Virus record (IMG/VR): IMGVR_UViG_3300042906_000857
Coordinates: 67,297-131,296 of that record
Reading direction: 5' to 3' (one strand)
DNA: 64,000 bases
Source of the DNA: a virus
Lineage: Duplodnaviria; Heunggongvirae; Uroviricota; Caudoviricetes
How positions within the stretch are numbered: position 1 is the stretch's first letter; every line of letters starts with the position of its first letter. This document shows positions 22,324-41,083 of this stretch, piece after piece. Under the pieces are notes generated by a model. It did not search any database, was not told the origin of the DNA, and saw nothing but the letters and a program-made list of their open reading frames with translations. The translations under genes were made by a program, and so were the position numbers.

Positions 22324-22396
22324 TGGTTGCGGGCCTCGGAGTCGAACCGGAACTGAGGATTATGAGCCCACTGTGATACCATTTCACCAGCCCGCT
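22324..22396 (-). tRNA. tRNA-Met(CAT), initiator-like
   Basis: CT-CAT-AA loop, 1:72 mismatch, GGG in anticodon stem, encoded CCA. Confidence 0.8.
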
Positions 22397-22399
22397 ATA

Positions 22400-22570
22400 T
22401 TATTCTTTTACAACTTGTCTATTCATTATCTCATTAAAGGCTTCATCTTCAGCCTCGTCATCATCAATTTCTACTGGTGTTTTTCTTCTAAAGATTTCAT
22501 CAAAGTTTTTACCATATGTTTCTTGTGAAACACTATATGGTCTTGCATTTGAACCTTTACCACCATCAGA
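22400..22570 (-). CDS. Small conserved phage protein (MSDGGKGS...)
   Basis: GGAG SD before MSDGG; the ORF track start at 22597 is probably too long. Confidence 0.5.
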   Translation of the reverse strand, partial: SDGGKGSNARPYSVSQETYGKNFDEIFRRKTPVEIDDDEAEDEAFNEIMNRQVVKE

Positions 22571-22574
22571 CATT

Positions 22575-22820
22575 TTATTCTCCGTAGATGTATGCAATAT
22601 CTTCTACTTTTACAATAAAGTAATCCTTTACTGCTGCTGCTTTACCCCAATCAGGTTGTACAACATCACCAACCGATAATTCACTTGCATCAGGACCAAC
22701 AGCAATAACTCTAGCCTTATCAGGTTCTTCGGAATGTTTTAAAATAATTCCTGAAGATGTTTGTTTGATGTTCTCAATGCGCTCAATCAAAACTTTATCG
22801 TGTAACGGCTTAATAATCAT
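22575..22820 (-). CDS. groES: Co-chaperonin GroES
   Basis: IKPLHDKVLI, TSSGIIL, VIAVGP. Confidence 0.9.
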   Translation of the reverse strand: MIIKPLHDKVLIERIENIKQTSSGIILKHSEEPDKARVIAVGPDASELSVGDVVQPDWGKAAAVKDYFIVKVEDIAYIYGE

Positions 22821-22834
22821 AATGTCCTAAAAAA

Positions 22835-22898
22835 TGGAGCGGGTACCTAGATTCCCACTAGGATTATGGATGGACCCACAAATGTTGGAAACACCCGC
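22835..22898 (-). ncRNA. Degenerate tRNA-like RNA
   Basis: GCGGGT/ACCCGC-T-CCA acceptor; no normal D arm; T-loop TGGGAAT. Confidence 0.5.
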
Positions 22899-22904
22899 AT
22901 AAAC

Positions 22905-22978
22905 TGGAGCGGAATATCAGAATCGAACTGATGACTGGAGATTGGAAATCTCTAATTTTGCCATTAAACTAATTCCGC
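22905..22978 (-). tRNA. tRNA-Gly(TCC)
   Basis: TT-TCC-AA loop, GTTCGATTC, CCA. Confidence 0.92.
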
Positions 22979-22986
22979 ATGTATGT

Positions 22987-23015
22987 ATTATATATGAAAA
23001 AACTTGTAGAGTCAA
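22987..23015 (-). promoter_or_regulatory. Internal sigma70-type promoter
   Basis: TTGACT-17-TATAAT. Confidence 0.7.
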
Positions 23016-23039
23016 TACTTTTTTTTAAAGTGTACCATT

Positions 23040-23113
23040 TGGTGCCCCATGACAGAATCGAACTGCCGTAACCTGATTACAAAACAGGTGTAATACCATT
23101 ATACTAATAGGGC
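23040..23113 (-). tRNA. tRNA-Thr(TGT)
   Basis: TT-TGT-AA loop, CCA. Confidence 0.92.
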
Positions 23114-23121
23114 GAAAGAGT

Positions 23122-23196
23122 TGGAGCGGGCAGCGGGAATCGAACCCGCAACTAAACCTTGGCAAGGTCTTGTGTTACCACTAGCACCATGCCCGC
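23122..23196 (-). tRNA. tRNA-Gly(GCC)
   Basis: TT-GCC-AA loop, CCA. Confidence 0.92.
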
Positions 23197-23215
23197 TTAT
23201 GTTATTATTATATAG

Positions 23216-23300
23216 TGGTGCGAGGAGCGGGACTCGAACCCGCACGCCATAAAGACAAGAGATTTTAAGTCTCTCACGGCTACCATTACGTCATCCTCGC
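23216..23300 (-). tRNA. tRNA-Leu(TAA)
   Basis: CT-TAA-AA loop, long variable arm. Confidence 0.92.
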
Positions 23301-23307
23301 ATTGCTC

Positions 23308-23382
23308 TGGTCCGGCGTGAGAGAATCGAACTCCCATCAGAAGGGTAGAAGCCTACTGTACTATCCATTGTACTAACGCCAG
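23308..23382 (-). tRNA. tRNA-Arg(TCT)
   Basis: CT-TCT-AC loop, CCA. Confidence 0.88.
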
Positions 23383-23387
23383 AGATT

Positions 23388-23461
23388 TGGTGCTCTTAAC
23401 AAGAATTGAACTTGTATCTCATCCTTACCAAGGACGTGTACTACCACTGTACTATAAGAGC
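23388..23461 (-). tRNA. tRNA-Thr(GGT)
   Basis: TT-GGT-AA loop, CCA. Confidence 0.9.
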
Positions 23462-23467
23462 TTAATT

Positions 23468-23552
23468 TGGTGCCCCAGGTCGGACTCGAACCGACACGCC
23501 ACAAGGACATGAGTTTCTAAGACTCACACGGCTACCATTACGTCACCGGGGC
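23468..23552 (-). tRNA. tRNA-Leu(TAG)
   Basis: CT-TAG-AA loop, long variable arm. Confidence 0.92.
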
Positions 23553-23558
23553 ATTATT

Positions 23559-23634
23559 TGGTGCAACCTGTAGGAATCGAACCTACTTCAATGCCGCTTC
23601 AAGACACCGCTATGACCACATCAGCTAAAGTTGC
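23559..23634 (-). tRNA. tRNA-Phe(GAA)
   Basis: Stem GTGTC/GGCAT around TT-GAA-GC. Confidence 0.85.
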
Positions 23635-23639
23635 ATATT

Positions 23640-23713
23640 TGGTACCTCGTTGGAGAATCGAACTCCCGTATGCACCGTGTAAGGATGCCGTTCTACCATT
23701 AAACTACCGAGGC
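23640..23713 (-). tRNA. tRNA-Val(TAC)
   Basis: CT-TAC-AC loop, CCA. Confidence 0.9.
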
Positions 23714-23723
23714 AAATTTACTT

Positions 23724-23797
23724 TGGGGTGACCTATGGGAGTTGAACCCATACTAAGAGATTCACAATCTCGGGTGCTGCCGCTACACTAAGGCCAC
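23724..23797 (-). tRNA. tRNA-His(GTG)
   Basis: TT-GTG-AA loop, C73 discriminator. Confidence 0.9.
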
Positions 23798-23840
23798 ACC
23801 AAAGTAAACTTTGGGATAATTTTTGGTTTATCATCACCGT

Positions 23841-24338
23841 TTAAGATTCTAACAATTCCTGTTCTGCCAAGATTCTTTTCAATCTGTCAGCGCAGAAAGA
23901 TGCTGCTGGAGCGTCAGGTTTAACCATTGGAGTCATGTTACATGTACCTTTGATATAACCGATAGCTTGTTGCACAACGCATGAGGATCCGTGCAGGTCT
24001 GATTTGTTCAAGTCCAAGTGAACTTCAACATGATAATCTTCCAACACTTCTGATAGATTTTGAAATAATTCAGAAACTTTGTAAACTTCGGTCATCAGTC
24101 TCATTGCAGGTTTACTTTTCTTGTGGTCGTAATCTAATTCACGATCCACATAACCAAAGATTTTACAACCATGACGGCCATCAATATGAACAACTACAGC
24201 AAGTGCATAATCGGCATACCAAACACCATTGATTCTAATTCTTTCAGAATCAGCACCAAGATAAACTTTAGTGTCTGGTCCTTGTTTTGCTAAATATTCT
24301 TTAACATCTTGTATGTCGAACTTACTCATATCATTCAC
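23841..24338 (-). CDS. RNase H-like protein (YkuK/DUF458-like)
   Basis: VYLGADSE, LMTEV, VEVHLDLN, ASFCAD acidic tetrad pattern. Confidence 0.7.
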   Translation of the reverse strand: MNDMSKFDIQDVKEYLAKQGPDTKVYLGADSERIRINGVWYADYALAVVVHIDGRHGCKIFGYVDRELDYDHKKSKPAMRLMTEVYKVSELFQNLSEVLEDYHVEVHLDLNKSDLHGSSCVVQQAIGYIKGTCNMTPMVKPDAPAASFCADRLKRILAEQELLES

Positions 24339-24351
24339 CTTTCTTTAAATT

Positions 24352-24425
24352 TGGCACCCCGGGAAGGACTCGAACCTTCACAAACAGTTTTGGAGACTGT
24401 CGTGCTGCCATTACACTACCGAGAT
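24352..24425 (-). tRNA. tRNA-Trp(CCA)
   Basis: CT-CCA-AA loop, G73. Confidence 0.92.
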
Positions 24426-24432
24426 ATAATTC

Positions 24433-24506
24433 TGGTACCCTGTAGAGGTAACGATCCTCTGTCTATCGGTTATCAGCCGATTGCTCTACCTTTAAGCTAA
24501 CGGGGT
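24433..24506 (-). tRNA. tRNA-Ile(GAT)
   Basis: CT-GAT-AA loop; atypical T-loop ATCGTTA. Confidence 0.85.
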
Positions 24507-24511
24507 ATATA

Positions 24512-24587
24512 TGGAGGGTCATAGAGGACTCAAACCCCTAACTCAAACTTCGTAGGATTGTGTGATATTCAGTTTCACCAACGACCC
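24512..24587 (-). tRNA. tRNA-Arg(ACG)
   Basis: CT-ACG-AA loop, GGGTCGT/ATGACCC acceptor. Confidence 0.85.
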
Positions 24588-24992
24588 AAATAATTTTCCA
24601 GCGTGATGTTTTCTGTGACAATTTGAACATAAACACGCACACTTATTAACTTCATCAAGAATTTGTTTTTTACTAGCTTCCGATTTATTGGAAATATCAA
24701 ATTCTTTTTCTGCACTGTCTATGTGATGAAAGTCTAAACAAACCGGTTCAGATTCTCCACACACACAACAGCTTAAGGTTTCTTTCAATTTCAAAAACCA
24801 TTCTTTATTTTCTTTTTTATATTTTTTTATTCTATTCAAATTTGTTGAATGGTGTTTATAATAAGACTGTTTACTTTTTATTTTACGACACTCATCACAA
24901 AAAGTGATTCTTGTTCCCTTTGATTTGTTTTTGAAGGCAAATTTCTCAATTGGGAATATTTCGCCGCAACAATTACATTTTTTTGTTTCCAT
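24543..24992 (-). mobile_element. Free-standing HNH (homing-type) endonuclease gene
   Basis: CxxC Zn sites, LDFHH...N..C..LCSNCHRKHH; late promoter upstream. Confidence 0.8.
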
Positions 24993-25003
24993 ATATTTTT
25001 CCT

Positions 25004-25034
25004 AGATACGAACTTATTTATAAAGTTTGTATCT
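25004..25034 (-). promoter_or_regulatory. TATAAATA late promoter in the loop of a 12-bp hairpin next to the HNH SD
   Basis: AGATACAAACTT-TATAAAT-AAGTTCGTATCT, then AGGA. Confidence 0.7.
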
Positions 25035-25040
25035 TTTATA

Positions 25041-25116
25041 TGGTAGTAACGGTGAGACTCGAACTCACGATAAACACCGTATGAAGGTGGTGCATTAGCC
25101 ACTATGCTACGTTACC
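25041..25116 (-). tRNA. tRNA-Met(CAT), elongator Met or Ile2
   Basis: TT-CAT-AC loop, CCA. Confidence 0.8.
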
Positions 25117-25245
25117 ATAGAAAAACACACTCGGCTCTCCTTACAACCTTGTTCCTGTCAATTCAGGATGAAACTGGATGAACCCAGTGGCTCCCCTTGG
25201 TTGTTTTTATCTGTCAATTCAGATTGAAAGTGTGTTTATCTATAG
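25115..25245 (-). ncRNA. Class I closed-stem RNA cassette a
   Basis: CTATAGATAAACACACT...AGTGTGTTTTTCTATGG; two internal CTG-AATTGA-CAG hairpins. Confidence 0.6.
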
Positions 25246-25248
25246 CTA

Positions 25249-25376
25249 CCATATAGAAACACTCTGATAAGTGCTTGAATCTTGTGGTGACCCTACTTCA
25301 CGGTAGATTATTGCAATGGTCGACATATGCAATATGCTGTTTTTCCGCTGTAGTCACACAGAATGTTTTTATATGG
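25249..25376 (-). ncRNA. Class I closed-stem RNA cassette b
   Basis: CCATATAAAAACATTCTG...CAGAGTGTTTCTATATGG. Confidence 0.6.
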
Positions 25377-25448
25377 TGGACCGCCGGGGAGTCGAACCCC
25401 GTACTCCTACGTGCAAGGCAGGTGTGTTCCCAAGTATACCAGCAGCCC
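25374..25448 (-). tRNA. tRNA-Ala(TGC)
   Basis: CT-TGC-AC loop, G3:U70. Confidence 0.92.
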
Positions 25449-25498
25449 ATAATTGACAATTTATCCTATTATACGCCGTCAATAAAGGCGATTATTTT

Positions 25499-25572
25499 TG
25501 GTCTCGGTAGAAGGAATCGAACCTTCGCCACATGGCCCCAAACCACGCATGATACCATTTCACCACACCGAG
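25499..25572 (-). tRNA. tRNA-Pro(TGG)
   Basis: TT-TGG-GG loop. Confidence 0.9.
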
Positions 25573-25578
25573 AAATAT

Positions 25579-25653
25579 TGGCTCCAGAGGCAGGGATCGA
25601 ACCTACGACCAATTGATTAACAGTCAACTGCACTACCGCTGTGCTACTCTGGA
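25579..25653 (-). tRNA. tRNA-Asn(GTT)
   Basis: CT-GTT-AA loop. Confidence 0.93.
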
Positions 25654-25660
25654 ATATTGA

Positions 25661-26100
25661 ATTTGTAAGCCTACGCCGCATTTATCGTAGATTTATTCAG
25701 GACTTACCGGCCGGTATAGCCTGACCTCGTCAAGATTATCTCTCGAACGATGGATATCACTTGGGATTCGTCCAGTACAGTCCCCATTACGGACCTCCGC
25801 AGTTGCCCGAGGGTGGGAGTTGAACCCATTAACCTTTTACTGCTTTGGTCCTTCGAAGAAACCTAGACAGCGTGACTTCACTTGCTGACACTTACAAAAC
25901 TAAAATGTAGTAGGCAGAGACAAAACTCTATTAGTTTGCGCTTCGATATTTAACGCCACCTTCGTGGATCCGCAACGCCATTTACTCTAGTACCAGACTA
26001 GAACTACAAAACTAAATCTGTGGCAGGTGAGGTATCTAGTTAGTCGTTCTAAAAGCAACCAACTTGCCCATTCTCCTTTTACTTTCCTTACCACAAAACT
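25661..26100 (-). ncRNA. Three tandem class II structured RNAs, each starting AGTTTTGT
   Basis: Units ~26100-26019, 26013-25905 and 25901-25661, each with a terminal helix. Confidence 0.55.
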
Positions 26101-26174
26101 GGCGACTCGTGGGAGAATCGAACTCCCATCTACGGATAGACAATCCGCGATAATGACCATTATATGAACGAGCC
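26100..26174 (-). tRNA. tRNA-Asp(GTC)
   Basis: TT-GTC-TA loop, G73. Confidence 0.92.
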
Positions 26175-26258
26175 TAAAAATTTAACGTGGAGCCTTTCAC
26201 TTACCACGATTAGTACACTAAAGTACTTGAAGGTTACACCCAACCTTTAAGAGTGATT

Positions 26259-26351
26259 TGGTGGAGCAACTTGGAGTCGAACCAAGATTGTTTACCCAAA
26301 GGGATCAGATTTACAGTCTGAGGATGCACACGCCATAGCATCAATTGCTCC
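26259..26351 (-). tRNA. tRNA-Tyr(GTA)
   Basis: CT-GTA-AA loop, long variable arm. Confidence 0.9.
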
Positions 26352-26360
26352 AAATTCTAA

Positions 26361-26459
26361 CATATGTAAACACACTAGAGTTTTACGATAAACTACGCTC
26401 TCAAGGTTCTGCTCAAGACCCCATAGGTTTGCCTATGTTTCTAATGTGTTTGCATATGG
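26361..26459 (-). ncRNA. Class I closed-stem RNA cassette c
   Basis: CCATATGCAAACACATTAG...CTAGTGTGTTTACATATG. Confidence 0.6.
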
Positions 26460-26531
26460 TAGGGGCACAGAGAATCGAACTCTGATAGACCGGTTAAAAG
26501 CCGGATATTCTAGCCGTTGAATTATACCCCC
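26457..26531 (-). tRNA. tRNA-Lys(TTT)
   Basis: CT-TTT-AA loop. Confidence 0.92.
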
Positions 26532-26589
26532 ATTATCTTACCACTCTTGTCACTTTCCATGACAGTCTCCTTTTTAAAAAAAAATATTA

Positions 26590-26800
26590 CCATATTAAAA
26601 TACATTAGGGTGTGATTGTCGTTCCAGAACTACATCTGGATTCTCACGGCTTCGTCTGCCGATAAGACAATCTCCACATTACTTGCCAATTTATTCTAGC
26701 GCCATCGGAAGGCTTCATGTAATCTTAGTGAGAATGATGCGGCCATCAAGTGCTCCTAAGTCACCTACTAGAATTGGTAACCTAATATATTTTAATATGG
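26590..26800 (-). ncRNA. Class I closed-stem RNA cassette d
   Basis: CCATATTAAAATATATTAGG...CCTAATGTATTTTAATATGG. Confidence 0.6.
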
Positions 26801-26872
26801 TACTCCGTACGAGAGTCGAACTCGTCTTATTGGGTTGAAAACCCAGTGTCCTAACCGATAGACGAACGGAGT
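26798..26872 (-). tRNA. tRNA-Glu(TTC)
   Basis: TT-TTC-AA loop. Confidence 0.92.
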
Positions 26873-26888
26873 ATATTAACTCTACAAA

Positions 26889-26960
26889 TTTTTAAAGAAC
26901 AGTGTGTATTATATACCAAATACACACTCTTGTCAATACCAGTGTTGCATAATAACAACA
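26889..26960 (-). promoter_or_regulatory. Promoter TTGACA-17-TATAAT with upstream TGTTG-N8-CAACA box and downstream boxA-like motif
   Basis: Box 26943-26960, -35 26936-26931, -10 26913-26908, TGTTCTTTAAAAA 26901-26889. Confidence 0.8.
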
Positions 26961-26995
26961 TCTGTTTTTACATTGATTTCTCAACGCAAGAATGT

Positions 26996-27047
26996 ATTAT
27001 AACAGAACTGGCCACTTTGTCAACCAGTGTGTTGTTTTTTTACAACA
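26996..27047 (-). promoter_or_regulatory. Promoter TTGACA-16-TATAAT with TGTTG-N8-CAACA box
   Basis: Box 27030-27047, -35 27023-27018. Confidence 0.7.
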
Positions 27048-27069
27048 TTTGTTATTCGCAAATAAAGAA

Positions 27070-27145
27070 TGGAGTGGGTGACAGGACTCGAACCTGCATT
27101 ATCCGGACTTGCAAACCGGCACCTAGCCTTTCAGAACACACCCAC
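27070..27145 (-). tRNA. tRNA-Cys(GCA)
   Basis: TT-GCA-AG loop, U73. Confidence 0.88.
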
Positions 27146-27146
27146 A

Positions 27147-27341
27147 TTATTTTTTCTTACGTGATATCCAACCATCATAGTTTGGATCAGTCACTTCATC
27201 AACACCAAACTTACCTACAAATTCCATTTCACCATTGGTGATAGTCACGAATGTACCGTAACCTATTGCAAACTTCATTGCATCAAGCAATGATTCAAAC
27301 TCTTGCAACGGTAATTTGTTTTCACTTATAATTTTCCACAT
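27147..27341 (-). CDS. Small hypothetical protein
   Basis: 64 aa, AAGGA SD, fills the gap between two tRNAs. Confidence 0.55.
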   Translation of the reverse strand: MWKIISENKLPLQEFESLLDAMKFAIGYGTFVTITNGEMEFVGKFGVDEVTDPNYDGWISRKKK

Positions 27342-27359
27342 ATCATATCATCCTTAATT

Positions 27360-27436
27360 TGGTACCTCTACTCTGATTCGAACAGAGAAACTCCTCCTTT
27401 TGAGAGAGGTGACTTTACCAATTTGTCCATAGAGGC
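27360..27436 (-). tRNA. tRNA-Leu(CAA) with short variable loop
   Basis: CT-CAA-AA loop; 5-nt variable region. Confidence 0.8.
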
Positions 27437-27438
27437 AT

Positions 27439-27530
27439 TGGTACCAGCGTAGGGATTCGAACCCTATCAAGAACGCTAATCTGGCGCTAAAAGGCTTATA
27501 AGACCTCTCTGACTACCCAGTCTCGCTGGC
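27439..27530 (-). tRNA. Non-canonical tRNA, anticodon TAT (Ile), long variable arm, minimal D-loop
   Basis: CT-TAT-AA loop, GGTTCGAATCC T-arm, GCCAGCG/CGCTGGT-A-CCA. Confidence 0.7.
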
Positions 27531-27535
27531 ATATT

Positions 27536-27624
27536 TGGCGGAGAGTGTGGGAATCGAACCCACTCACCATATCACTACGGCGACAGATTAGCAATCTGCT
27601 GCATTACCATCCTGCCCACTCTCC
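27536..27624 (-). tRNA. tRNA-Ser(GCT)
   Basis: TT-GCT-AA loop, long arm, G73. Confidence 0.92.
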
Positions 27625-27764
27625 AATTGTTCAATTCTATTTGCTGCTTCTTCTAATAAATCAGCAATTCTATCTGGTGCATTTTCTTGCACCGATTTTC
27701 TTGTAGTAATTTGCCTACGAATTTCAGCACGTTTTCTTAATCGATAAATTAAATCTTCTTTCAT
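27588..27764 (-). CDS. Small conserved phage protein (MKEDLIYRLRKRAEIRRQI...)
   Basis: AAGGA SD; C-terminus runs into tRNA-Ser(GCT). Confidence 0.6.
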   Translation of the reverse strand: MKEDLIYRLRKRAEIRRQITTRKSVQENAPDRIADLLEEAANRIEQLESGQDGNAADC

Positions 27765-27779
27765 AAGAATTCCTTTTAA

Positions 27780-27871
27780 TGGCGGAAGACGGAGGAGTCG
27801 AACCCCATCCAATTTCTCAGAACCTGGTTTTCAAGGCCAGTCGCAGGACCAACCCCGCTGCATCATCTTCC
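27780..27871 (-). tRNA. tRNA-Ser(TGA)
   Basis: CT-TGA-AA loop, long arm, G73. Confidence 0.9.
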
Positions 27872-27940
27872 ATATAGAAACACACTAGCATGAACCTGTT
27901 GTCAATTATCCCTGCGGGGAACTAATATGTTTTTATATGG
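27870..27940 (-). ncRNA. Class I closed-stem RNA cassette e
   Basis: CCATATAAAAACATATTAG...CTAGTGTGTTTCTATATGG. Confidence 0.6.
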
Positions 27941-28011
27941 CACCCGGAGTAAGAATCGAACTTACAATAGCAGAGTCAAAGTCTGTTGTGTTGCCACTAC
28001 ACTATCCGGGA
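27938..28011 (-). tRNA. tRNA-Gln(TTG)
   Basis: CT-TTG-AC loop, G73. Confidence 0.9.
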
Positions 28012-28028
28012 GTATTTTACTCTACAAA

Positions 28029-28100
28029 TTTTTAAAGAACAGTGTGTATTATATACCAAATTCGATGACTTGGCAATACGTGTGTTGTTTTTATGCAACA
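28029..28100 (-). promoter_or_regulatory. Promoter TTGCCA-17-TATAAT with TGTTG-N8-CAACA box and boxA-like motif
   Basis: Box 28083-28100, -35 28076-28071, -10 28053-28048; 28019-28061 is identical to 26879-26921 (43 bp). Confidence 0.8.
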
Positions 28101-28102
28101 CC

Positions 28103-28137
28103 AAACAAAAAACCCTTAGAGGTTGAATTCTAAGGGT
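28103..28137 (-). terminator. Intrinsic terminator of the putative attenuator
   Basis: ACCCTTAGA-loop-TCTAAGGGT followed by TTTTTGTTT. Confidence 0.85.
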
Positions 28138-28173
28138 CTTGTGTTTGGAATCTTTTCTAAGAACTTTTTATCT

Positions 28174-28284
28174 TTAGTCCTCATTCTCTACACAAAACCC
28201 GGTCGGCCATGACGCATCGGCACAATTAATACTTGTGCGATACTCCGATTGGGACGTAAAGGGTTTATGGGATATGAGGGACAC
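28174..28284 (-). CDS. 36-aa leader peptide MSLISHKPFTSQSEYRTSINCADASWPTGFCVENED (contains all 20 amino acids)
   Basis: GTG start 28284-28282, TAA 28176-28174; lies between a promoter and a terminator. Confidence 0.7.
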   Translation of the reverse strand: MSLISHKPFTSQSEYRTSINCADASWPTGFCVENED

Positions 28285-28319
28285 TTTTTTTCTTTCGAGT
28301 TATATTTAACGATGTTTGT

Positions 28320-28348
28320 ATTATATAGTAAACTTTATACCTTGGCAA
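28320..28348 (-). promoter_or_regulatory. sigma70-type promoter for the leader/attenuator
   Basis: TTGCCA (28348-28343)-17-TATAAT (28325-28320). Confidence 0.8.
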
Positions 28349-28368
28349 GCGGTTTCACAAAAAATATT

Positions 28369-28881
28369 TTAATTTATTTTTTTCCACTTGATAGGTTTTG
28401 GTACCAAAGGTGCGGTCGGATTTTGAAATTCACTGAAAACTTCCCATAGATGTTCTGCTGTTACATACTTTGTAAGCAATCCAATCTCACGGCCGTAAGC
28501 ATCTATTTCCCATGGATGTGACCAGTATTCAACCTCATCGGAGTTTATTTTTTTACCACGCCATGTCGATAGTTGTTCATTGGTTTCACCCTCGATATAC
28601 TGTTTGATGTGAACCATCTCATGTGCTAACGTGGCCAAGATACCTCTGGCACCTAGACCTGGATGAACCTCAATTAAGAATTCTCTTGGTTGTTTTCTGG
28701 AGTTGTAATCTTCTATGCTACAAAATCCATATTCGTTTATCTTACTGTCGAAACGTACAGTAGTGAAACAATTGTTACGTATTCTTGTATTGGTAATCAA
28801 TTCTTTGGCGTAGAACTGGATAGACCTCTCAACGAAAGGCTTGAATGATTCCTCGGGACAGTTTAGAATCTTCAAATTCAT
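28369..28881 (-). CDS. Zincin-like metallopeptidase (SprT-like HExxH)
   Basis: TLAHEMVHIKQY...PWEIDAY. Confidence 0.75.
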   Translation of the reverse strand: MNLKILNCPEESFKPFVERSIQFYAKELITNTRIRNNCFTTVRFDSKINEYGFCSIEDYNSRKQPREFLIEVHPGLGARGILATLAHEMVHIKQYIEGETNEQLSTWRGKKINSDEVEYWSHPWEIDAYGREIGLLTKYVTAEHLWEVFSEFQNPTAPLVPKPIKWKKIN

Positions 28882-28937
28882 GCGAACTCCAGTTTATTTT
28901 TTAACCGATAATACTCACTCCTTAGCTATTTATGGAC

Positions 28938-29366
28938 TTACATCTTTTCCACTTTGATACCAGATTTCTCAAGGAAGTTTAATCCTGCCATGTCCCTATA
29001 ACTATTCCGATAGTATACAGAAGATATACCGCTTTGGTATATAAGTTTGGCACAGTCAAGACAAGGAGCGTGAGTAATAAATATATTAGCATCAAGACCG
29101 CTTTCGCTTGATTTGGCCAGCTTCGCAATTGCATTAGTTTCAGCATGAAGAACCTCAGGTTTAGTTTTCAACGTTACGGTATCATCGCTGTGTTGAATAG
29201 TATCTTCACAGTTATTATCCCATCCAGACGGCATTCCGTTATATCCAATTGATATAATTCTGTCATCCTTAACAACAATTGCACCAACGTGTAACCTTTT
29301 GGCAGAGGACAATTCAGCAAAGGTTTCTGCAACCTTCATAAAAGTATCAAGAAATTTCTGTTTCAT
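28938..29366 (-). CDS. cd: dCMP deaminase
   Basis: LHAETNAI, THAPCLDC, IGYNG. Confidence 0.92.
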   Translation of the reverse strand: MKQKFLDTFMKVAETFAELSSAKRLHVGAIVVKDDRIISIGYNGMPSGWDNNCEDTIQHSDDTVTLKTKPEVLHAETNAIAKLAKSSESGLDANIFITHAPCLDCAKLIYQSGISSVYYRNSYRDMAGLNFLEKSGIKVEKM

Positions 29367-29379
29367 TTTGTTTTATAAA

Positions 29380-29454
29380 TGGTGGGCCGACTTGGAATTG
29401 AACCAAGACTCCGCCGATTATGAGTCGGAAGCTTTACCATTAAGCTATCGGCCC
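29380..29454 (-). tRNA. tRNA with CAT anticodon, Ile2 (lysidine)-like
   Basis: CCGA-CTCATAA-TCGG, GGGCCGA acceptor. Confidence 0.8.
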
Positions 29455-29460
29455 CCTTGT

Positions 29461-29670
29461 TTATTTAATGTATTCTAAACCGTCTTTACGCATCCAGTGT
29501 AACTGTTGTGTCAATTCATTGGATGGAAAAAACTTAGACACACCAATGAACTCCACACCTTCAATTTCTTTTGAAGGCCAGTGTTTGAATGTATAGTAAA
29601 CGTCCAGTGTAGATTTTACCCGCACTTTTATTGGACTTGGTGTTTTGATGTTTCGGTTTTCCAATTTCAT
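29461..29670 (-). CDS. Small hypothetical protein
   Basis: 69 aa downstream of a sigma70 promoter. Confidence 0.55.
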   Translation of the reverse strand: MKLENRNIKTPSPIKVRVKSTLDVYYTFKHWPSKEIEGVEFIGVSKFFPSNELTQQLHWMRKDGLEYIK

Positions 29671-29679
29671 AATGATCCT

Positions 29680-29718
29680 ATTATAGTCGAAAAAAAGGGC
29701 TCTGTCAAGAGCCCCTTT
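29680..29718 (-). terminator. Intrinsic terminator overlapping a TTGACA-17-TATAAT promoter
   Basis: GGGGCTC-TTGACA-GAGCCC-T7; -10 at 29685-29680. Confidence 0.7.
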
Positions 29719-29724
29719 AAATTA

Positions 29725-29790
29725 TTACCGAAACTTGTCCGGATAATTTAATCGTTCCCATTCATCATCGGATACTGGCCACCAGTTCAT
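29725..29790 (-). CDS. 21-aa micro-ORF MNWWPVSDDEWERLNYPDKFR
   Basis: ATG overlaps the previous stop (ATGA); ends just before the terminator. Confidence 0.45.
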   Translation of the reverse strand: MNWWPVSDDEWERLNYPDKFR

Positions 29791-29957
29791 GTTGGCCATC
29801 CATGTAAACGTTGTAGGTTTATTTGTTCAAACCTGCGTTGAAGATAGTCAATGTCTTCCACAGTCTTAGGATTGTTAGAAACAATGTATGCTTCTAACGC
29901 TGATCCGTAAGTCTGTGGTTTACCAAAGTTCCGTAAGAACTTGGATAAGAATTTCAT
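29787..29957 (-). CDS. 56-aa small protein (MKFLSKFLRNFGKPQTYGSALEAYIVSNNP...)
   Basis: Not in ORF track; ATGA overlap with the hsp20 stop. Confidence 0.55.
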   Translation of the reverse strand: MKFLSKFLRNFGKPQTYGSALEAYIVSNNPKTVEDIDYLQRRFEQINLQRLHGWPT

Positions 29958-30409
29958 TTCTCATCCTTTTCTTTCACAACGATTTTCTTGATTGCATCTT
30001 GGCCTTTGACCATGTTTGCTAACCAAATCTTTAACATTCCATTGGTCATTTCAGCATTTTCAATTTCAATTTTGTCATTGAGTTTGAATTCACGGCTGAA
30101 ATTACGATTGGCGATACCTTTGAAGATAAAGTTTTTATCGTCTAGTTCTTCATCTTGAGTATTACCTTTCACAACCAATTTGTTACCTTCTAGTGTAACT
30201 TCAATATCAGATTTGCCGAAGCCAGCAACAGCGATTTCGATAACGAACTTGTTATCTTTGATCTGCTTGATATTGTATGGAGGGTAAGAAACGGTCTTGG
30301 CGACTGTCTTTGCCATGTCTTGTAGGTCTTTGAACATATCTTCATAACCTACTGCGAATGGATCAAACTTGTGGAAGTCGAATAAACCAGGTAGTTGTAG
30401 CTTTGTCAT
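29954..30409 (-). CDS. hsp20: Small heat-shock protein Hsp20
   Basis: YPPYNI, IEIAVAGF, KGIANRNFSREF, NGMLKI. Confidence 0.95.
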   Translation of the reverse strand: MTKLQLPGLFDFHKFDPFAVGYEDMFKDLQDMAKTVAKTVSYPPYNIKQIKDNKFVIEIAVAGFGKSDIEVTLEGNKLVVKGNTQDEELDDKNFIFKGIANRNFSREFKLNDKIEIENAEMTNGMLKIWLANMVKGQDAIKKIVVKEKDEK

Positions 30410-30565
30410 AATTGCTCCTTAATAAGCGAGTTTTTAAAATTGCAACCCCGAAGGCATTGCATAAAATCCAGGTTACCTTATCTGGTCCGAACTTTCGTGC
30501 CGGAGGTGTAATTACACGGACGCCTTTTACCGTAGCATCTAACGGCCCTAAGGTGGGCCTATTAT
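30410..30565 (-). ncRNA. Structured 5' leader of hsp20
   Basis: At least four hairpins between TATAAATA (30578-30571) and the AAGGAG SD. Confidence 0.5.
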
Positions 30566-30585
30566 ATCTTTATTTATATTGGGTG

Positions 30586-30993
30586 TCAACCGTTTTGTGG
30601 TTTTTTACCAATATTATATTTTGGTACCAATTGCCAGTCTGATTTTTCTTTATGTGAAATGATCTTCACTTGAGATAGAAAGATTGGTACTGGAACTTCA
30701 GTTTGTTTTTTGTCAACAATCTTAACTAAGCCCCAATCTTCCAACAGATTTACAATAGCATTTCTGCGTGATAGGTCATTCTCAGTTAAATCAGTTTCTT
30801 TACCATCAAGAGCAAATAACTCTTTGAAGTGAACTATGTAATATTTACCACGTTTGTGTAGAATATGGCAAGATTGATACAGTGTATTGTCCTTCTTGGA
30901 AGCAACACCGATACGTGTTAACGTTTCACGTACCTTCAAAAAATCATCACTTTCTTCTAATAATACCTCAACTAGATCCTTAATTTCAATCAT
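30586..30993 (-). CDS. regA: Translational repressor RegA
   Basis: DFLKVRETLTRIG, LYQSCHILHKRGKYYIVHFKELF. Confidence 0.97.
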   Translation of the reverse strand: MIEIKDLVEVLLEESDDFLKVRETLTRIGVASKKDNTLYQSCHILHKRGKYYIVHFKELFALDGKETDLTENDLSRRNAIVNLLEDWGLVKIVDKKQTEVPVPIFLSQVKIISHKEKSDWQLVPKYNIGKKPQNG

Positions 30994-31364
30994 TTCATTC
31001 CGCCTTTAATTGTTTTTATTTTTATTTCAGCGATTTGTTCATCTGTAAGAATACGTAGAGCATCTTTTGCTTTTTGGTTTGAATAACCAAAATAAGTCTT
31101 TACAGATTCAATATCAACATCTCTATTAGACTTCTGCCACGGTTGGTACGTCCGTTTCATAGGTCTGATATTATTTAGAAGATACTGGTATTGCATGTCA
31201 GGATCAAGTCCTGGCCACATATTCATTTCATTTGAATACAATACACAATCTACATGATAGGATAAAGAACGATTAATGAGGAATGGTTTATATTCTTTGA
31301 AGTTTAATTCATCAACGGGTTTCTTTTTGTGTAGTAATAAATCTACAAATTCGAATGGTGTCAT
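30990..31364 (-). CDS. gp62: Clamp loader small subunit
   Basis: YKPFLINRSLS, YFGYSNQKA; synteny. Confidence 0.9.
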   Translation of the reverse strand: MTPFEFVDLLLHKKKPVDELNFKEYKPFLINRSLSYHVDCVLYSNEMNMWPGLDPDMQYQYLLNNIRPMKRTYQPWQKSNRDVDIESVKTYFGYSNQKAKDALRILTDEQIAEIKIKTIKGGMK

Positions 31365-32293
31365 TTGAATTCACATTCCACCATGATTTCTGTAAGACAG
31401 GCAATGAGATTAATCTCGTGGTCTGCTACGAATGCTGCTTGGTATTGATACTTAGCAAGAATTAGAACCAATTGTGGAACTGAATTAGGTTTAAGAATCT
31501 CATACAATGCATCATAGATGTTTCTAAAGATACGTGTTTGGTCATTATCCAAGTTCATTGTAACCCATTTACGGCAGGCTGCAAAGTCTTTACCTTTTAA
31601 GGATTTAGTGAGTTCTTCCATTCGAATATCAGAAACAGATGCAAGGATGCCATGGTCAATACTTCCAGAGATTCCATAACGTTGCAATTCATTTAGAATA
31701 CGGCGATTGTCAGGAAAGTGTTTAGTGATAACCGCAGCAACAACATCTTTACTGTACGTGATGTTCTCTTGTGTTAGAATATATTCCACACGTTTGAAGA
31801 AAGCGGATGCCATCTTGGCTTTGCTGCCATTGGCCTTGAAATCAATTACTGTACAACGTGAATGAATCGGATCAATAATACGATTTTTAAAGTTACAAGT
31901 AAAAATGAAAGAACAATTCTCTGCATATTCTTCAATACCTGCACGTAAGATTGCCTGAGCGTTTGGTGTTAGATAGTCTGCCTCATCCAAGATGATGACC
32001 TTACGACCACCGGTGAGTGACATTGACGAAGCATAGTTCTTGATTTTGATACGAATTGTATCTACACCATTTTCATCCGAGCCATTGATGATAATGTAAT
32101 CACAACCAACCTGTTCACAAAGAGCTCGTGCAACAGTGGTCTTACCCACACCTGCGGAACCTGCAAACAATAGATTGGGAATCTTATTTTGGTTTACAAA
32201 TTCCTGGAAGGTATTTTTAAGACCTTCTGGTAGAATACAATCCTCAATAGTTTTAGGACGGTACTTCTCTACCCATAACATATGTTCTGACAT
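31361..32293 (-). CDS. gp44: Clamp loader AAA+ subunit
   Basis: WVEKYRP, GVGKT, LDEAD, SRC. Confidence 0.97.
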   Translation of the reverse strand: MSEHMLWVEKYRPKTIEDCILPEGLKNTFQEFVNQNKIPNLLFAGSAGVGKTTVARALCEQVGCDYIIINGSDENGVDTIRIKIKNYASSMSLTGGRKVIILDEADYLTPNAQAILRAGIEEYAENCSFIFTCNFKNRIIDPIHSRCTVIDFKANGSKAKMASAFFKRVEYILTQENITYSKDVVAAVITKHFPDNRRILNELQRYGISGSIDHGILASVSDIRMEELTKSLKGKDFAACRKWVTMNLDNDQTRIFRNIYDALYEILKPNSVPQLVLILAKYQYQAAFVADHEINLIACLTEIMVECEFK

Positions 32294-32348
32294 TCAAATT
32301 CTCCATAATATAATAAAATCAAACCGGTAGTGCGAAACCGGCGGTTCG

Positions 32349-32624
32349 TTATTTAATGTCGTTCATACTCTCAAACAAGGCTTCAAACTCTTTGGATTCT
32401 GCAACCTCAGTCTGGAATGAATTCTTAAACTGAGTCTTTGCCATACGTTTGATAATCTTTTTAGGAATTTTTAATTCTTCATTTGATACTTCAATAATGT
32501 CCTTGATAGCCTGATTGTTGGAATCATTGCGTTGCATATGCAATACAACTTCTTCAATATAACCTTTAAGTTGTTTTAATTGTACATCATCAAAAGAACC
32601 GAACAATGTATTAACTTTGGTCAT
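32349..32624 (-). CDS. T4 DsbA-like dsDNA-binding protein
   Basis: Start at MTKVNTLFG; ELKIPKKIIKRMAK...EFEALFE resembles the DsbA family pattern. Confidence 0.55.
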   Translation of the reverse strand: MTKVNTLFGSFDDVQLKQLKGYIEEVVLHMQRNDSNNQAIKDIIEVSNEELKIPKKIIKRMAKTQFKNSFQTEVAESKEFEALFESMNDIK

Positions 32625-32625
32625 A

Positions 32626-33306
32626 TTATACTCCGCTGAAAGAAAGGTCTGAATCTTTAGATTCGATTGCGATCCAATATTGAATATCTTCTTTTGTATT
32701 TTTGAAAGATGATAAACCTTTGCTGCACAATTGAACACTGTAAGAACCTGGAAGCATCTTAAAGTTTTCAGTTAAGAATACTGCTTTGAATTTCTTACCA
32801 TTGCCATCAGAAATTTCTGTGGAGTTTGTGTGTGAAGAATTGTCTTTAGGATCAAAAGATGTGATTGAAATCTTTTCACCATCAGATTCAATTGCAATGT
32901 TAGGTGATTGTAAAACACTTGCACTCTTTAGAATGGAACTCAAGTCATCCTCGGTCAAGGTAAACTCAACATCAACTGATGGTAGAGTCAACTCTTTTTC
33001 TGGAGGTGTAACAATCATGTTCTTGGCTGTCTTACGATATTTAATCTTGCTGTGTTTATTTTTAAAAATAACATTCAAGGAATCGAATTCTAACTCAACA
33101 TCCTTATTCAAGGAATGTACTGAAAGGAATTGGTTCAAATCATAGATACAGAAATCATCTGTAAACTCATCTTTAACGGACGCTTTTGCAAGAACCGTTT
33201 TAGTTGAAGAAATGGTTGTAAGGCTTTTACCTTTTTTAAACTCAATACCTGGATTGATGTTCGCAAAGTTTTTCAAGACCGCAAGGGTCTCATTAGTTAG
33301 TTTCAT
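32626..33306 (-). CDS. gp45: Sliding clamp
   Basis: MKLTNETLAVLKNFANIN, IYDLNQFL, YWIAIE. Confidence 0.96.
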   Translation of the reverse strand: MKLTNETLAVLKNFANINPGIEFKKGKSLTTISSTKTVLAKASVKDEFTDDFCIYDLNQFLSVHSLNKDVELEFDSLNVIFKNKHSKIKYRKTAKNMIVTPPEKELTLPSVDVEFTLTEDDLSSILKSASVLQSPNIAIESDGEKISITSFDPKDNSSHTNSTEISDGNGKKFKAVFLTENFKMLPGSYSVQLCSKGLSSFKNTKEDIQYWIAIESKDSDLSFSGV

Positions 33307-33964
33307 GATATACTCCGTTTAATTCACTCATTATACTCGAACCATAAGATTTGGCAAGGCATTTAATGAGGTTTGTTTTCAAGTCTTCCAGTGTTCCTAC
33401 GTTATCAATCTGGTGGTCAATAGTACCACCAAGCCAACGCCATTCAGATTCATGTACACCGGATTTTTGCAGCATAAACTGCTCAGCTTTATTATCACCG
33501 TTGTTAGCATAACCAGCAATATCGTACCAGTGAGGTGTAATACCACGTTGTACTTCAATTAAGATGCCATTGTTATTAGTAACAAAATCCATTTCATTTC
33601 TGAAACGAACATCTGTGATTACAAAGTTTTCATTAGGATTAGATGCAATGTATTTTTTGAGTTTTATAACCCAAAATTGTTTGTGGAATACATCACGTCC
33701 AACTTCTGTGCCCATTAGTTGTAAGGCCAACCTTGGAGTAAACTCTTTACCAAATTCTTTAGACCAGAATTCGTCAGGTTTTTCTCGCCACTGTCTTGAT
33801 TGTTCCGTATCACCTTCTAACAGATGACGAGGCCAATCAAACATTTCAGCGGCAACATCCTTAACACCTTTAGCAAAACTCAACGGAGTAAAGCCAAGTG
33901 TTTTAAGAATGTCGCCGGCTGTGCCTTTACCTGAACCAATGAATCCAAGTAAACCAACAATCAT
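33293..33964 (-). CDS. gp1: dNMP kinase
   Basis: GFIGSGKGT, TPRLALQLMGTE, DVRFRNE. Confidence 0.92.
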   Translation of the reverse strand: MIVGLLGFIGSGKGTAGDILKTLGFTPLSFAKGVKDVAAEMFDWPRHLLEGDTEQSRQWREKPDEFWSKEFGKEFTPRLALQLMGTEVGRDVFHKQFWVIKLKKYIASNPNENFVITDVRFRNEMDFVTNNNGILIEVQRGITPHWYDIAGYANNGDNKAEQFMLQKSGVHESEWRWLGGTIDHQIDNVGTLEDLKTNLIKCLAKSYGSSIMSELNGVYHETN

Positions 33965-34782: not shown

Positions 34783-34796
34783 TATCTCTCCAAAAA

Positions 34797-34833
34797 TAAA
34801 AAAAAGGGGAGAACCACCGATGGTGGTCTCCCC
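34797..34833 (-). terminator. Intrinsic terminator
   Basis: GGGAGACCACC-ATC-GGTGGTTCTCCC followed by a U-tract. Confidence 0.8.
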
Positions 34834-34845
34834 AGCAATTACCGA

Positions 34846-35118: not shown

Positions 35119-35171
35119 ATGAACTCCTAATAATAAATTAAAACAATGTCTTGCAATCAGCAAGTACTCAC

Positions 35172-35200
35172 ATCATATCATTATATAGTGTGTGTGTCAA
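35172..35200 (-). promoter_or_regulatory. sigma70-type promoter for the HTH gene
   Basis: TTGACA-17-TATGAT. Confidence 0.7.
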
Positions 35201-35221
35201 GCATATTTACGGTATACTTGT

Positions 35222-36343: not shown

Positions 36344-36409
36344 TTAATTTTCCTTAATTCAGGTGTTGTAATATCACAGAGATATTACTGTTTGGTTTAA
36401 ATTATCAAA

Positions 36410-41066: not shown

Positions 41067-41083
41067 TTATAACAAATATTAAT

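What the first reader, a model, noticed from the sequence alone, without database searches (positions are those of the whole stretch)
25115..27940. Five RNA cassettes sharing one closing helix but with unrelated interiors
Seen: 25115-25245, 25249-25376, 26361-26459, 26590-26800 and 27870-27940. Each is closed by about 17-20 bp matching CCATAT-x-AAAACAYAYTAG ... CTAGTGTGTTT-x-ATATGG, with differences that keep the pairing. Four begin with the CCA of the upstream tRNA (Ala, Lys, Glu, Gln). Two end on the 5' GG of the next tRNA (Met, Ser). The interiors (~35-170 nt) are different multi-hairpin folds, and AATTGAC recurs in a and e. Inference: a modular carrier stem releasing diverse small RNAs (decoys or anti-defence RNAs), or a helix that gates tRNA end maturation.
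Basis: partly seen in the sequence, partly recalled or inferred. Interest (0 to 1): 0.75.

Follow-up and report, generated by a model that had tools for sequence, protein, structure and literature searches.

The report
Stem-closed small RNA cassettes behind phage tRNAs
In the tRNA gene cluster of an uncultured T4-like lake phage, five small RNA modules are each clamped by the same kind of 18-20 base-pair stem that starts on the CCA end of a tRNA; related phages keep the stem but swap what it holds, and no RNA database or paper that I searched describes this arrangement.

Summary
All five cassettes lie on the minus strand, co-oriented with a tRNA array of 29 genes. Each is closed by an 18-20 bp AU-rich helix. 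Four start on the CCA of tRNA-Ala, Lys, Glu or Gln, and two end on G1-G2 of tRNA-Met or tRNA-Ser(UGA).

In 159 related IMG/VR loci I found 243 such cassettes, against 7 in shuffled sequence. Partner arms covary: 18.4 pairs with the true partner against 14.8 with shuffled partners. G.U pairs outnumber A.C, so the helix is selected as RNA on the tRNA strand.

Interiors fall into about 80 unrelated families, and "empty" 39-nt hairpins also exist. Two window cargos are real RNA families. Cargo d (about 210 nt) has 26 of 48 pairs with compensatory changes. Cargo a (about 95 nt, twin AAUUGA-loop hairpins) is 94% identical across 23 junction contexts, more conserved than the neighbouring tRNA-Lys. 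Interiors b and e fold no better than chance.

My best reading is small RNA genes punctuated by tRNA ends and cut out by host tRNA-processing enzymes, with the stem acting as processing frame and protective clamp. Cleavage sites and function are untested.

There is no Rfam match. T4 rnaC and rnaD are the closest known setting. This scan has already noted the same class on other DNA (e1-5379362, e1-5407729, e1-306025).

The parts
27870..27940 (-). Cassette e: 19-bp closing helix with a 33-nt interior. It runs from C74 of tRNA-Gln to G2 of tRNA-Ser(UGA).
   Evidence: Fold. The same cassette sits behind tRNA-Ala in L139. An RNA-library contig aligns exactly to 27870-27940 with unlike flanks. The interior alone gives z 0.0.
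26590..26800 (-). Cassette d: 20-bp closing helix with a 173-nt multi-helix interior, starting at C74 of tRNA-Glu.
   Evidence: Fold (z -6.7). Alignment A2 holds 41 sequences, with 97% of cells paired and 26 of 48 pairs showing compensatory change, against 8-9 in slid controls.
26360..26459 (-). Cassette c: 18-bp closing helix with a 62-nt interior, starting on the CCA of tRNA-Lys. tRNA-Tyr follows 9 nt after the 3' arm.
   Evidence: Fold (z -4.9). Interior alone gives z -2.1. An RNA-library contig covers 26361-26461.
25249..25376 (-). Cassette b: 18-bp closing helix with a 90-nt interior, starting at C74 of tRNA-Ala.
   Evidence: Fold. Related interiors sit behind Phe, Gln, Leu and Ala tRNAs (family 5). 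Interior alone gives z -0.8.
25115..25245 (-). Cassette a: 18-bp closing helix with a 93-nt interior carrying two AAUUGA-loop hairpins. It lies 3 nt after cassette b and ends on G1-G2 of tRNA-Met.
   Evidence: Fold (z -5.8). Alignment A3 covers 23 contexts, with the interior 94% identical on average and covariation in the stem. An RNA-library contig bridges a and tRNA-Met (X16 record 9).
24989..25043 (-). Sixth, reduced cassette behind tRNA-Met: a 7-bp outer helix starting on the CCA, plus an inner hairpin. Its 3' strand holds the ribosome-binding site and ATG of the HNH endonuclease gene.
   Evidence: Fold (z -4.5). ORF 24543-24992 matches HNH endonuclease families.
27938..28011 (-). tRNA-Gln(UUG), first gene behind promoter 28076-28048. 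Its CCA opens cassette e.
27781..27871 (-). tRNA-Ser(UGA). Its G1-G2 close cassette e.
   Evidence: Rfam match at 27784-27871; relaxed ARAGORN. The orthologous position in relatives is called tRNA-Ser(tga).
26798..26872 (-). tRNA-Glu(UUC), first gene behind promoters 27023-26996 and 26936-26908. Its CCA opens cassette d.
26457..26531 (-). tRNA-Lys(UUU). Its CCA opens cassette c.
25374..25448 (-). tRNA-Ala(UGC). Its CCA opens cassette b.
25041..25116 (-). tRNA-Met(CAU). Its G1-G2 close cassette a, and its CCA opens the sixth hairpin.

Best explanation
The five elements are small RNA genes built into the phage's tRNA operons. Each is an RNA whose two ends form one long AU-rich stem (P1).

The stem is placed so that its first pairs are C74-C75-A76 of the upstream tRNA against U(-1)-G1-G2 at or near the start of the next tRNA. 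The host's own tRNA-end enzymes therefore define the cassette's ends. RNase P would cut at the 3' side, before G1. An endonuclease acting after the CCA (RNase E or RNase P-type trailer removal), or RNase III within the stem, followed by exonuclease trimming, would make the 5' side.

After excision the stem would clamp both ends and protect the RNA. Because the stem is shared, different cargo RNAs can sit in the same frame and are exchanged between phages and between tRNA junctions.

Shown here: the stem is real, selected at the RNA level and tied to tRNA 3' ends; cargos are swapped; cargos a and d are conserved structured RNAs; the cassettes occur in RNA libraries.

Inferred: the cleavage sites, the enzymes, the stability of the released RNAs, and what any cargo does.
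For: Stem:
- 18-20 bp in all five cassettes.
- 260 stem-closed cassettes found in 159 related loci plus the window's own array, against 7 in shuffled sequence.
- Positions 1-7 and 9-18 are paired in 97-100% of 170 distinct arm pairs, with several pair types at most positions.
- Arms make 18.4 pairs with their own partner against 14.8 with shuffled partners, a difference of 27 sd.
- Outside position 8 and the frayed inner end, G.U pairs far outnumber A.C, so the tRNA strand is the selected RNA strand.

Link to tRNA ends:
- 154 of 190 distinct cassettes start on the CCA of a called tRNA.
- 100 of 192 are followed by a tRNA within 15 nt, and in 27 of these the arm's GG is tRNA nucleotides 1-2.
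- Where the same cargo sits behind a boxA-type leader with no tRNA upstream, the first pairs change from CC/GG to UU/AA and the helix is kept.

Cargo:
- About 80 unrelated interior families.
- Interiors are at background identity while the flanking tRNA and arms are conserved.
- d: 26 of 48 pairs show compensatory change against 8-9 in slid controls. a: 11 of 43 against 1-3.
- Cargo a averages 94% identity, against 71% for the adjacent tRNA-Lys.
- Both a and d are always co-oriented with the tRNAs.

Expression: contigs from four metatranscriptomes of four studies cover a, c, e and part of d, and one bridges a and tRNA-Met.

Precedent: E. coli RNase P removes hairpins lying 2-7 nt behind the CCA (PMC4176162).
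Against: - No RNA ends were seen. The runs available were assembled contigs, and RNA libraries can contain DNA.
- A stem that begins on the CCA should hinder RNase P and 3' exonucleases acting on the upstream tRNA rather than help them (PMC4176162 notes poor RNase P cleavage when the 3' trailer is long).
- Interiors as a class are only slightly more structured than random genomic segments (mean z -0.77 against -0.43). Interiors b and e are not structured above chance.
- 'Empty' 39-44-nt hairpins exist, so cargo is not required.
- The phage encodes no RNase III, RtcB, Ro60 or CCA-adding enzyme. Every processing step therefore rests on an unknown host.
Confidence: 0.5

Rival explanations
1. The stem itself is the functional unit. 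It is a spacer hairpin that links the 3' end of one tRNA to the 5' end of the next, and acts as an RNase III-type processing stalk, an exonuclease barrier or a timing gate for tRNA maturation. Its loop merely tolerates insertions, so most interiors are passengers.
For: - Minimal 39-44-nt hairpins bridge tRNA-Gln directly to tRNA-Ser, and tRNA-Lys to the next tRNA.
- Occupancy is very high behind the two promoter-proximal tRNAs: Gln 66 of 77 and Glu 55 of 67.
- Interiors b and e show no fold above chance, and the class mean is weak.
- The stem is AU-rich and 18-20 bp, with a recurrent A.C at position 8 in 35% of arm pairs. This resembles the weak spots of RNase III sites, which is a resemblance from established knowledge and not a test.
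- boxA-like motifs behind the promoters recall rRNA operons, which use such stalks.
Against: - Cargos a and d are strongly conserved, with covariation. Cargo a is more conserved than the tRNA next to it.
- Cargos a and d keep a closing stem even where no tRNA precedes them.
- Typical cassettes are 70-130 nt, not minimal hairpins.
- The cultured relatives DLP_6 and BUCT-ZZ01 have similar tRNA arrays without any such stems, so tRNA processing does not need them.
Confidence: 0.2
2. The shared stem is a protein-binding handle, as in Y RNAs bound by Ro60. The cassettes would be a set of RNPs that share one host or phage protein and differ in their variable module.
For: - Sequence is conserved beyond what pairing requires at positions 1-6, 9-10, 13, 15 and 17, with a recurrent mismatch at position 8.
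Against: - There is no TROVE/Ro60 gene in this complete 172-kb genome.
- There is no Y RNA or YrlA match in Rfam, even at E up to 5.
- The outermost conserved pairs belong to the flanking tRNAs and would be lost on processing.
- Arms within one genome are no more alike than arms of different genomes (0.52 against 0.52). One shared protein site would predict the opposite.
Confidence: 0.12
3. The cassettes are DNA-level elements, either miniature inverted-repeat mobile elements or recombination cassettes. Their terminal inverted repeats would be the arms, and they would spread among tRNA junctions.
For: - The same cargo is found at six or more kinds of junction.
- Tandem duplications of cassette plus neighbouring module occur in L040 and L020.
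- The outer arm, CCATAT/ATATGG, is a palindromic site.
- HNH endonuclease genes often sit directly behind cassettes.
Against: - The excess of G.U over A.C shows that pairing is selected on one strand, as RNA.
- Cargos a and d are always in the sense orientation.
- The arm motif pairs up only inside the tRNA array of the genome.
- No tyrosine recombinase or Y1 transposase is encoded, and no target-site duplication is visible.
- There is no sign of homogenisation of arms within a genome.
Confidence: 0.08

Closest known systems
Phage T4 small stable RNAs species 1 (rnaC) and species 2 (rnaD)
   Same: They are non-tRNA small RNAs encoded inside a T4-type phage tRNA cluster, co-oriented and co-transcribed with tRNAs. 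They are thought to be released by tRNA-processing enzymes, and their function has been unknown for decades (annotation).
   Different: rnaC carries a tRNA-like T arm and rnaD ends in CCA. Neither is closed by a long stem that starts on the CCA of the preceding tRNA. They share no sequence with the cassettes, and they show neither a common stem nor swapped cargo.
RNase III processing stalks (leader-trailer helices around 16S and 23S rRNA; phage T7 early RNase III sites)
   Same: A long duplex formed by sequences flanking an RNA inside a polycistronic stable-RNA transcript. boxA-like motifs follow the operon promoters, as in rRNA operons.
   Different: These stems are 18-20 bp, enclose RNAs of 3-180 nt and share tRNA end nucleotides. 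Cleavage by RNase III is untested, and the phage has no RNase III of its own.
Intervening segment of two-piece (circularly permuted) tmRNA genes
   Same: A hairpin-like segment lying between an upstream CCA end and a downstream 5' G, removed during maturation.
   Different: The flanks here are ordinary, complete tRNAs. ARAGORN finds no tmRNA. The Rfam permuted-tmRNA model scores 16-17 bits against a threshold of 47.
Y RNAs / YrlA (Ro60 partners)
   Same: Small RNAs whose ends form a conserved stem around a variable module, sometimes encoded next to tRNAs in phages.
   Different: There is no Ro60/TROVE gene and no Rfam match. The stem here is AU-rich and fused to tRNA ends.

Membership tests
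Any Rfam 15 family | Covariance-model match at or above the gathering score | tested here: not met
   Only tRNAs pass the gathering score. At E up to 5, nothing credible overlaps the five cassettes.
T4 rnaC/rnaD-type stable RNAs | Encoded within a phage tRNA cluster, on the same strand as the tRNAs | tested here: met
T4 rnaC/rnaD-type stable RNAs | Sequence or structure homology to rnaC or rnaD (T-arm-like hairpin, CCA 3' end) | tested here: not met
   The folds and sequences of T4 rnaC and rnaD lack the CCA-anchored closing stem. The phage database gave no match beyond tRNAs.
T4 rnaC/rnaD-type stable RNAs | Accumulate as discrete stable RNAs in infected cells | not testable with these tools
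   Only assembled metatranscriptome contigs were available.
RNase III processing stalk | Leader-trailer duplex of about two helical turns enclosing the RNA | tested here: met
   18-20 bp in all five cassettes, maintained by covariation.
RNase III processing stalk | Staggered cleavage by RNase III within the duplex | not testable with these tools
   No end data. The phage has no RNase III gene and the host is unknown.
Two-piece tmRNA intervening segment | Flanking pieces assemble into a tmRNA (tRNA-Ala-like domain plus tag reading frame) | tested here: not met
   ARAGORN finds no tmRNA. RF04321 scores 16-17 bits against a threshold of 47. The flanks are complete tRNAs.
Y RNA / YrlA | Ro60 (TROVE) partner gene and a match to the Y RNA models | tested here: not met
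Miniature inverted-repeat or IS200/IS605-derived element | Dispersed copies in either orientation; cognate transposase or recombinase | tested here: not met
   The arms pair up only in the tRNA array. Cargos are always in the sense orientation. No Y1 transposase or tyrosine recombinase is present.
TIGR-Tas guide arrays | Nop-domain Tas protein encoded with the array | tested here: not met

The most novel reading that the evidence does not exclude
The shared stem is a universal adaptor. It lets this phage lineage plug any small RNA into its tRNA operons and have the host's tRNA-end enzymes cut it out and deliver it. The hypervariable cargos would then be an exchangeable arsenal aimed at the host.

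Cargo a is one example. Its two hairpins display UUGAC, the same letters as positions 34-38 of the phage tRNA-Gln anticodon loop, and it could be a decoy for a tRNA-targeting defence or enzyme. It may be relevant that the tRNAs most often followed by cassettes are Gln(UUG), Glu(UUC) and Lys(UUU), the classic targets of anticodon nucleases.
Probability: 0.2. Interest if true: 0.85.

Novelty: new variant of a known kind. Interest (0 to 1): 0.62.

Why it matters
Phage tRNA clusters are usually read as codon-usage or anti-defence tRNA supplies. The RNAs between the tRNAs have had no explanation since T4's species 1 and 2 RNAs were described.

This lineage shows a regular rule for such RNAs: a covarying stem fused to tRNA ends, with interchangeable cargo. 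It also supplies two well-defined and very conserved cargo families (a and d) that can be synthesised and tested.

If the stem does direct excision by tRNA-processing enzymes, it is a natural expression scaffold for small RNAs. The cargos would then be a new pool of phage regulatory or counter-defence RNAs.

Tried and rejected
- Rfam at gathering and at permissive thresholds: only tRNAs matched.
- INPHARED phage records, near and distant modes: only tRNA matches.
- Literature searches: no description of CCA-anchored stem cassettes. One search failed on a term that was too short.
- Phage-encoded partners: no RNase III, RtcB, Ro60/TROVE, CCA-adding enzyme, Nop/Tas, tyrosine recombinase or Y1 transposase.
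- The PF04308 (YkuK, RNase H-like) gene inside the array was considered as a stem-specific nuclease. I rejected it as specific, because Stenotrophomonas phage DLP_6 has the same gene in its tRNA array but no CCA-anchored helices.
- Promoters inside cassettes, suggested by the TTGACA words in a and e: none has a -10 element at a usable spacing.
- Homogenisation of arms within a genome: none (0.52 against 0.52).
- Family 0 of the interior clustering was an artefact of single linkage through the extended arms.
- Folding the 464-nt Ala-b-a-Met stretch as a whole gave promiscuous arm pairings and is not informative.
- The scan of bacterial genomes for the arm pair gave six short MAG contigs from lake bins, probably mis-binned phage. 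No host can be named from them.
- Stretches of the window without cover in the RNA libraries, and the depth figures, were not used as evidence. No sites where molecules begin or end were reported.
- The pattern scan for cargo a also picked up unrelated tandem repeats of giant-virus contigs, which I discarded.
Full report
**Setting.** The window is part of a complete 172,157-bp IMG/VR virus record. It carries T4-type replication genes: a clamp loader, a dCMP deaminase and Hsp20. A tRNA array lies on the minus strand at 22324-29454, with 28 ARAGORN calls plus a tRNA-Ser(UGA) at 27871-27781 that Rfam and relaxed ARAGORN recover. All five elements of the finding lie on this strand. Consensus sigma-70 promoters precede tRNA-Gln (28076-28048) and tRNA-Glu (27023-26996 and 26936-26908), each followed by a boxA-like word.

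**Observation.** Read 5' to 3' on the minus strand, the cassettes are e (27940->27870), d (26800->26590), c (26459->26360), b (25376->25249) and a (25245->25115).
- Each folds with an 18-20 bp terminal helix containing at most one mismatch. Whole-cassette z-scores are -3.1 to -6.7.
- The arm consensus occurs 8-9 times in the window against 0.5-0.7 expected. It pairs up only in this array within the whole genome.
- b, c, d and e start on C74 of tRNA-Ala, Lys, Glu and Gln.
- a and e end on G1-G2 of tRNA-Met and tRNA-Ser(UGA).
- A sixth, reduced copy follows tRNA-Met (25043->24989). Its 3' strand carries the ribosome-binding site and start codon of an HNH endonuclease gene.
- In the Gln-e-Ser context the stem forms alongside both cloverleaves.

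**Relatives.** No cultured phage shares the region beyond its tRNAs. Two neighbouring proteins recovered 159 IMG/VR loci from lake metagenomes.
- A stem-based scan, with outer anchors allowed one mismatch and at least 16 of 18 pairs required, found 264 cassettes against 7 in block-shuffled sequence.
- After removing the antisense copy of the window's own region, this left 243 minimal cassettes in 112 of 160 sources, 190 of them distinct.
- 154 of the 190 start on the CCA of a called tRNA: Gln 59, Glu 52, Lys 11, Ala 10.
- Occupancy is 66 of 77 distinct tRNA-Gln contexts and 55 of 67 tRNA-Glu contexts, but only 11 of 64 for Lys and 9 of 59 for Ala.

**The stem is selected as RNA.** Over 170 distinct arm pairs, positions 1-7 and 9-18 are paired in 97-100% of cases, with several pair types at most positions.
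- Position 8 is an A.C in 35% of pairs.
- Arms make 18.4 pairs with their own partner against 14.8 with shuffled partners, a difference of 27 sd.
- Outside position 8 and the frayed inner end, G.U pairs greatly outnumber A.C. This means the tRNA strand is the strand under selection.
- Arms within one contig are no more alike than arms from different contigs, so there is no sign of gene conversion.

**Interiors.** Clustering gives about 80 unrelated families. The largest "family" was an artefact of extended arms.
- Next to conserved tRNAs (0.7-0.9 identity) and arms (about 0.8), interiors sit at background identity of about 0.4.
- RNA-library contigs exist that share both arms of cassette a but not its interior (table 5).
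- Lengths run from 39 to about 240 nt, with a median of 98. The shortest are plain hairpins that bridge tRNA-Gln to tRNA-Ser, or tRNA-Lys to the next tRNA.
- Folded without their arms, interiors are only slightly more structured than random segments (mean z -0.77 against -0.43, p = 0.006).
- For the window the values are d -2.9, a -2.4, c -2.1, b -0.8 and e 0.0.

**Cargo d is a real RNA family.** A conserved 23-nt word recovered 47 contigs.
- The 41-sequence alignment A2 has 97% of cells paired, and 26 of 48 pairs show compensatory change against 8-9 when partners are slid.
- It has long invariant unpaired blocks.
- The same cargo occurs with different stem sequences, and sometimes with no tRNA upstream.

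**Cargo a is also a real RNA family.** It was recovered by its twin hairpin word and occurs in 23 distinct contexts.
- These are behind tRNA-Lys, Glu or Asn, behind a tRNA-like module, behind another cassette, or directly behind a boxA-type leader.
- Its roughly 95-nt interior averages 94% identity, while the adjacent tRNA-Lys averages 71% and the arms 76-88%. There is a caveat: 20 of the letters were fixed by the search pattern.
- The stem covaries, with 11 of 43 pairs against 1-3 in slid controls.
- Where no tRNA precedes it, the first two pairs are U-A instead of C-G. This shows that CC/GG belong to the tRNAs while the helix itself is what is kept.
- Both a and d are always co-oriented with the tRNAs.

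**Expression.** Four metatranscriptomes from four studies hold contigs over cassette a (one of them bridges a and tRNA-Met), c, e (aligned exactly to the cassette, with unlike flanks) and part of d. Contigs cannot show RNA ends, and RNA libraries may contain DNA.

**Mechanism.** The geometry pairs A76 of one tRNA with U(-1) of the next. RNase P cutting before G1, and an endonuclease cutting after the CCA, would therefore excise a hairpin-closed RNA.
- RNase III could instead cut mid-stem, leaving short tails for RNase P and the exonucleases to trim, as happens in rRNA operons.
- E. coli RNase P is known to remove hairpins 2-7 nt behind a CCA (PMC4176162).
- The phage encodes none of RNase III, RtcB, Ro60, a CCA-adding enzyme, Nop, an integrase or a Y1 transposase. 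Host enzymes must therefore act.
- All of these steps are inference.

**Comparison with known systems.**
- T4 rnaC and rnaD share the setting but not the architecture.
- rRNA-type RNase III stalks share the leader-trailer logic.
- Intervening segments of two-piece tmRNA share the CCA-to-G placement, but the flanks here are plain tRNAs.
- Y RNAs share the stem-plus-module design, but neither the partner gene nor a model match is present.
- The cultured phages DLP_6 and BUCT-ZZ01 have comparable arrays, and the same RNase H-like gene, but no CCA-anchored helices.

**Earlier notes of this scan.** The scan describes the same class on other DNA (e1-5379362, e1-5407729, e1-306025). My results agree with those notes and were obtained independently on this window.

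**Verdict.** This is a real, widespread and uncatalogued class of stem-closed RNA cassettes fused to tRNA ends. I classify it as a new variant of the "small stable RNAs in phage tRNA clusters" kind. The function of the stem and of the cargos remains open.

Noticed in passing
window 25654-26100 (minus strand): A 445-nt ORF-free stretch between tRNA-Asp and tRNA-Asn contains a T-arm-like hairpin. RNA-library contigs over 25728-25935 reach summed depths of 27,900-46,800 in run X16 and 470-1,500 in the other runs, far above the neighbouring bins. Part of this may come from look-alike RNAs of other organisms.
   Followed up: partly
window 23841-24338 (minus strand): A 165-aa PF04308 (YkuK/DUF458, RNase H-like) protein is encoded inside the tRNA array and is about 90% identical across relatives. 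Stenotrophomonas phage DLP_6 has its homologue inside its own tRNA array, next to GroES as here.
   Followed up: partly
window 24543-24992 and 24989-25043 (minus strand): The ribosome-binding site and ATG of an HNH endonuclease gene lie in the 3' strand of a reduced cassette behind tRNA-Met. In relatives, ORFs also start directly behind cassettes; one of them has a Cys-rich start like this HNH gene.
   Followed up: partly
window 26532-26589 (minus strand): Behind cassette d come a run of nine U, a strong ribosome-binding site and a 12-codon mini-ORF with two Lys codons. The mini-ORF ends inside the 5' end of tRNA-Lys. It could be a weak terminator plus leader peptide.
   Followed up: no
window 28048-28020 and 26908-26880 (minus strand); L223, L239, L186: A boxA-like word (TGTTCTTTAAAAA) follows the array promoters. 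In some relatives, cargo a or cargo d sits directly behind such a leader and a small hairpin, with no tRNA in between.
   Followed up: partly
window 26928-26901 (minus strand): A 10-bp perfect inverted repeat spans the -10 element of the tRNA-Glu promoter. It shares the GTGTGT/ACACAC words of the cassette arms.
   Followed up: no
window 25115-25245; alignment A3: Cargo a is an internal duplication: twice a 5-bp hairpin with loop AAUUGA, followed by ...AAGGGGAGCC. The loop plus its closing C reads UUGAC, the same as positions 34-38 of the phage tRNA-Gln anticodon loop.
   Followed up: no
relatives L002-L160: The tRNAs most often followed by a cassette are Gln(UUG), Glu(UUC) and Lys(UUU). From established knowledge, these are the three tRNAs with a thiolated U34, and they are favoured targets of anticodon nucleases. 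Gln and Glu are also the promoter-proximal genes, which may be the simpler explanation.
   Followed up: no
L040:4394-5208, L020:12931-13800: Tandem arrays alternate stem-closed cassettes with CCA-ended, T-arm-bearing tRNA-like modules that ARAGORN does not call. L040 holds a duplicated cassette-plus-module unit.
   Followed up: partly
window 586-1779 (minus strand): A 397-aa protein matches DUF6267 (E = 5e-92).
   Followed up: no
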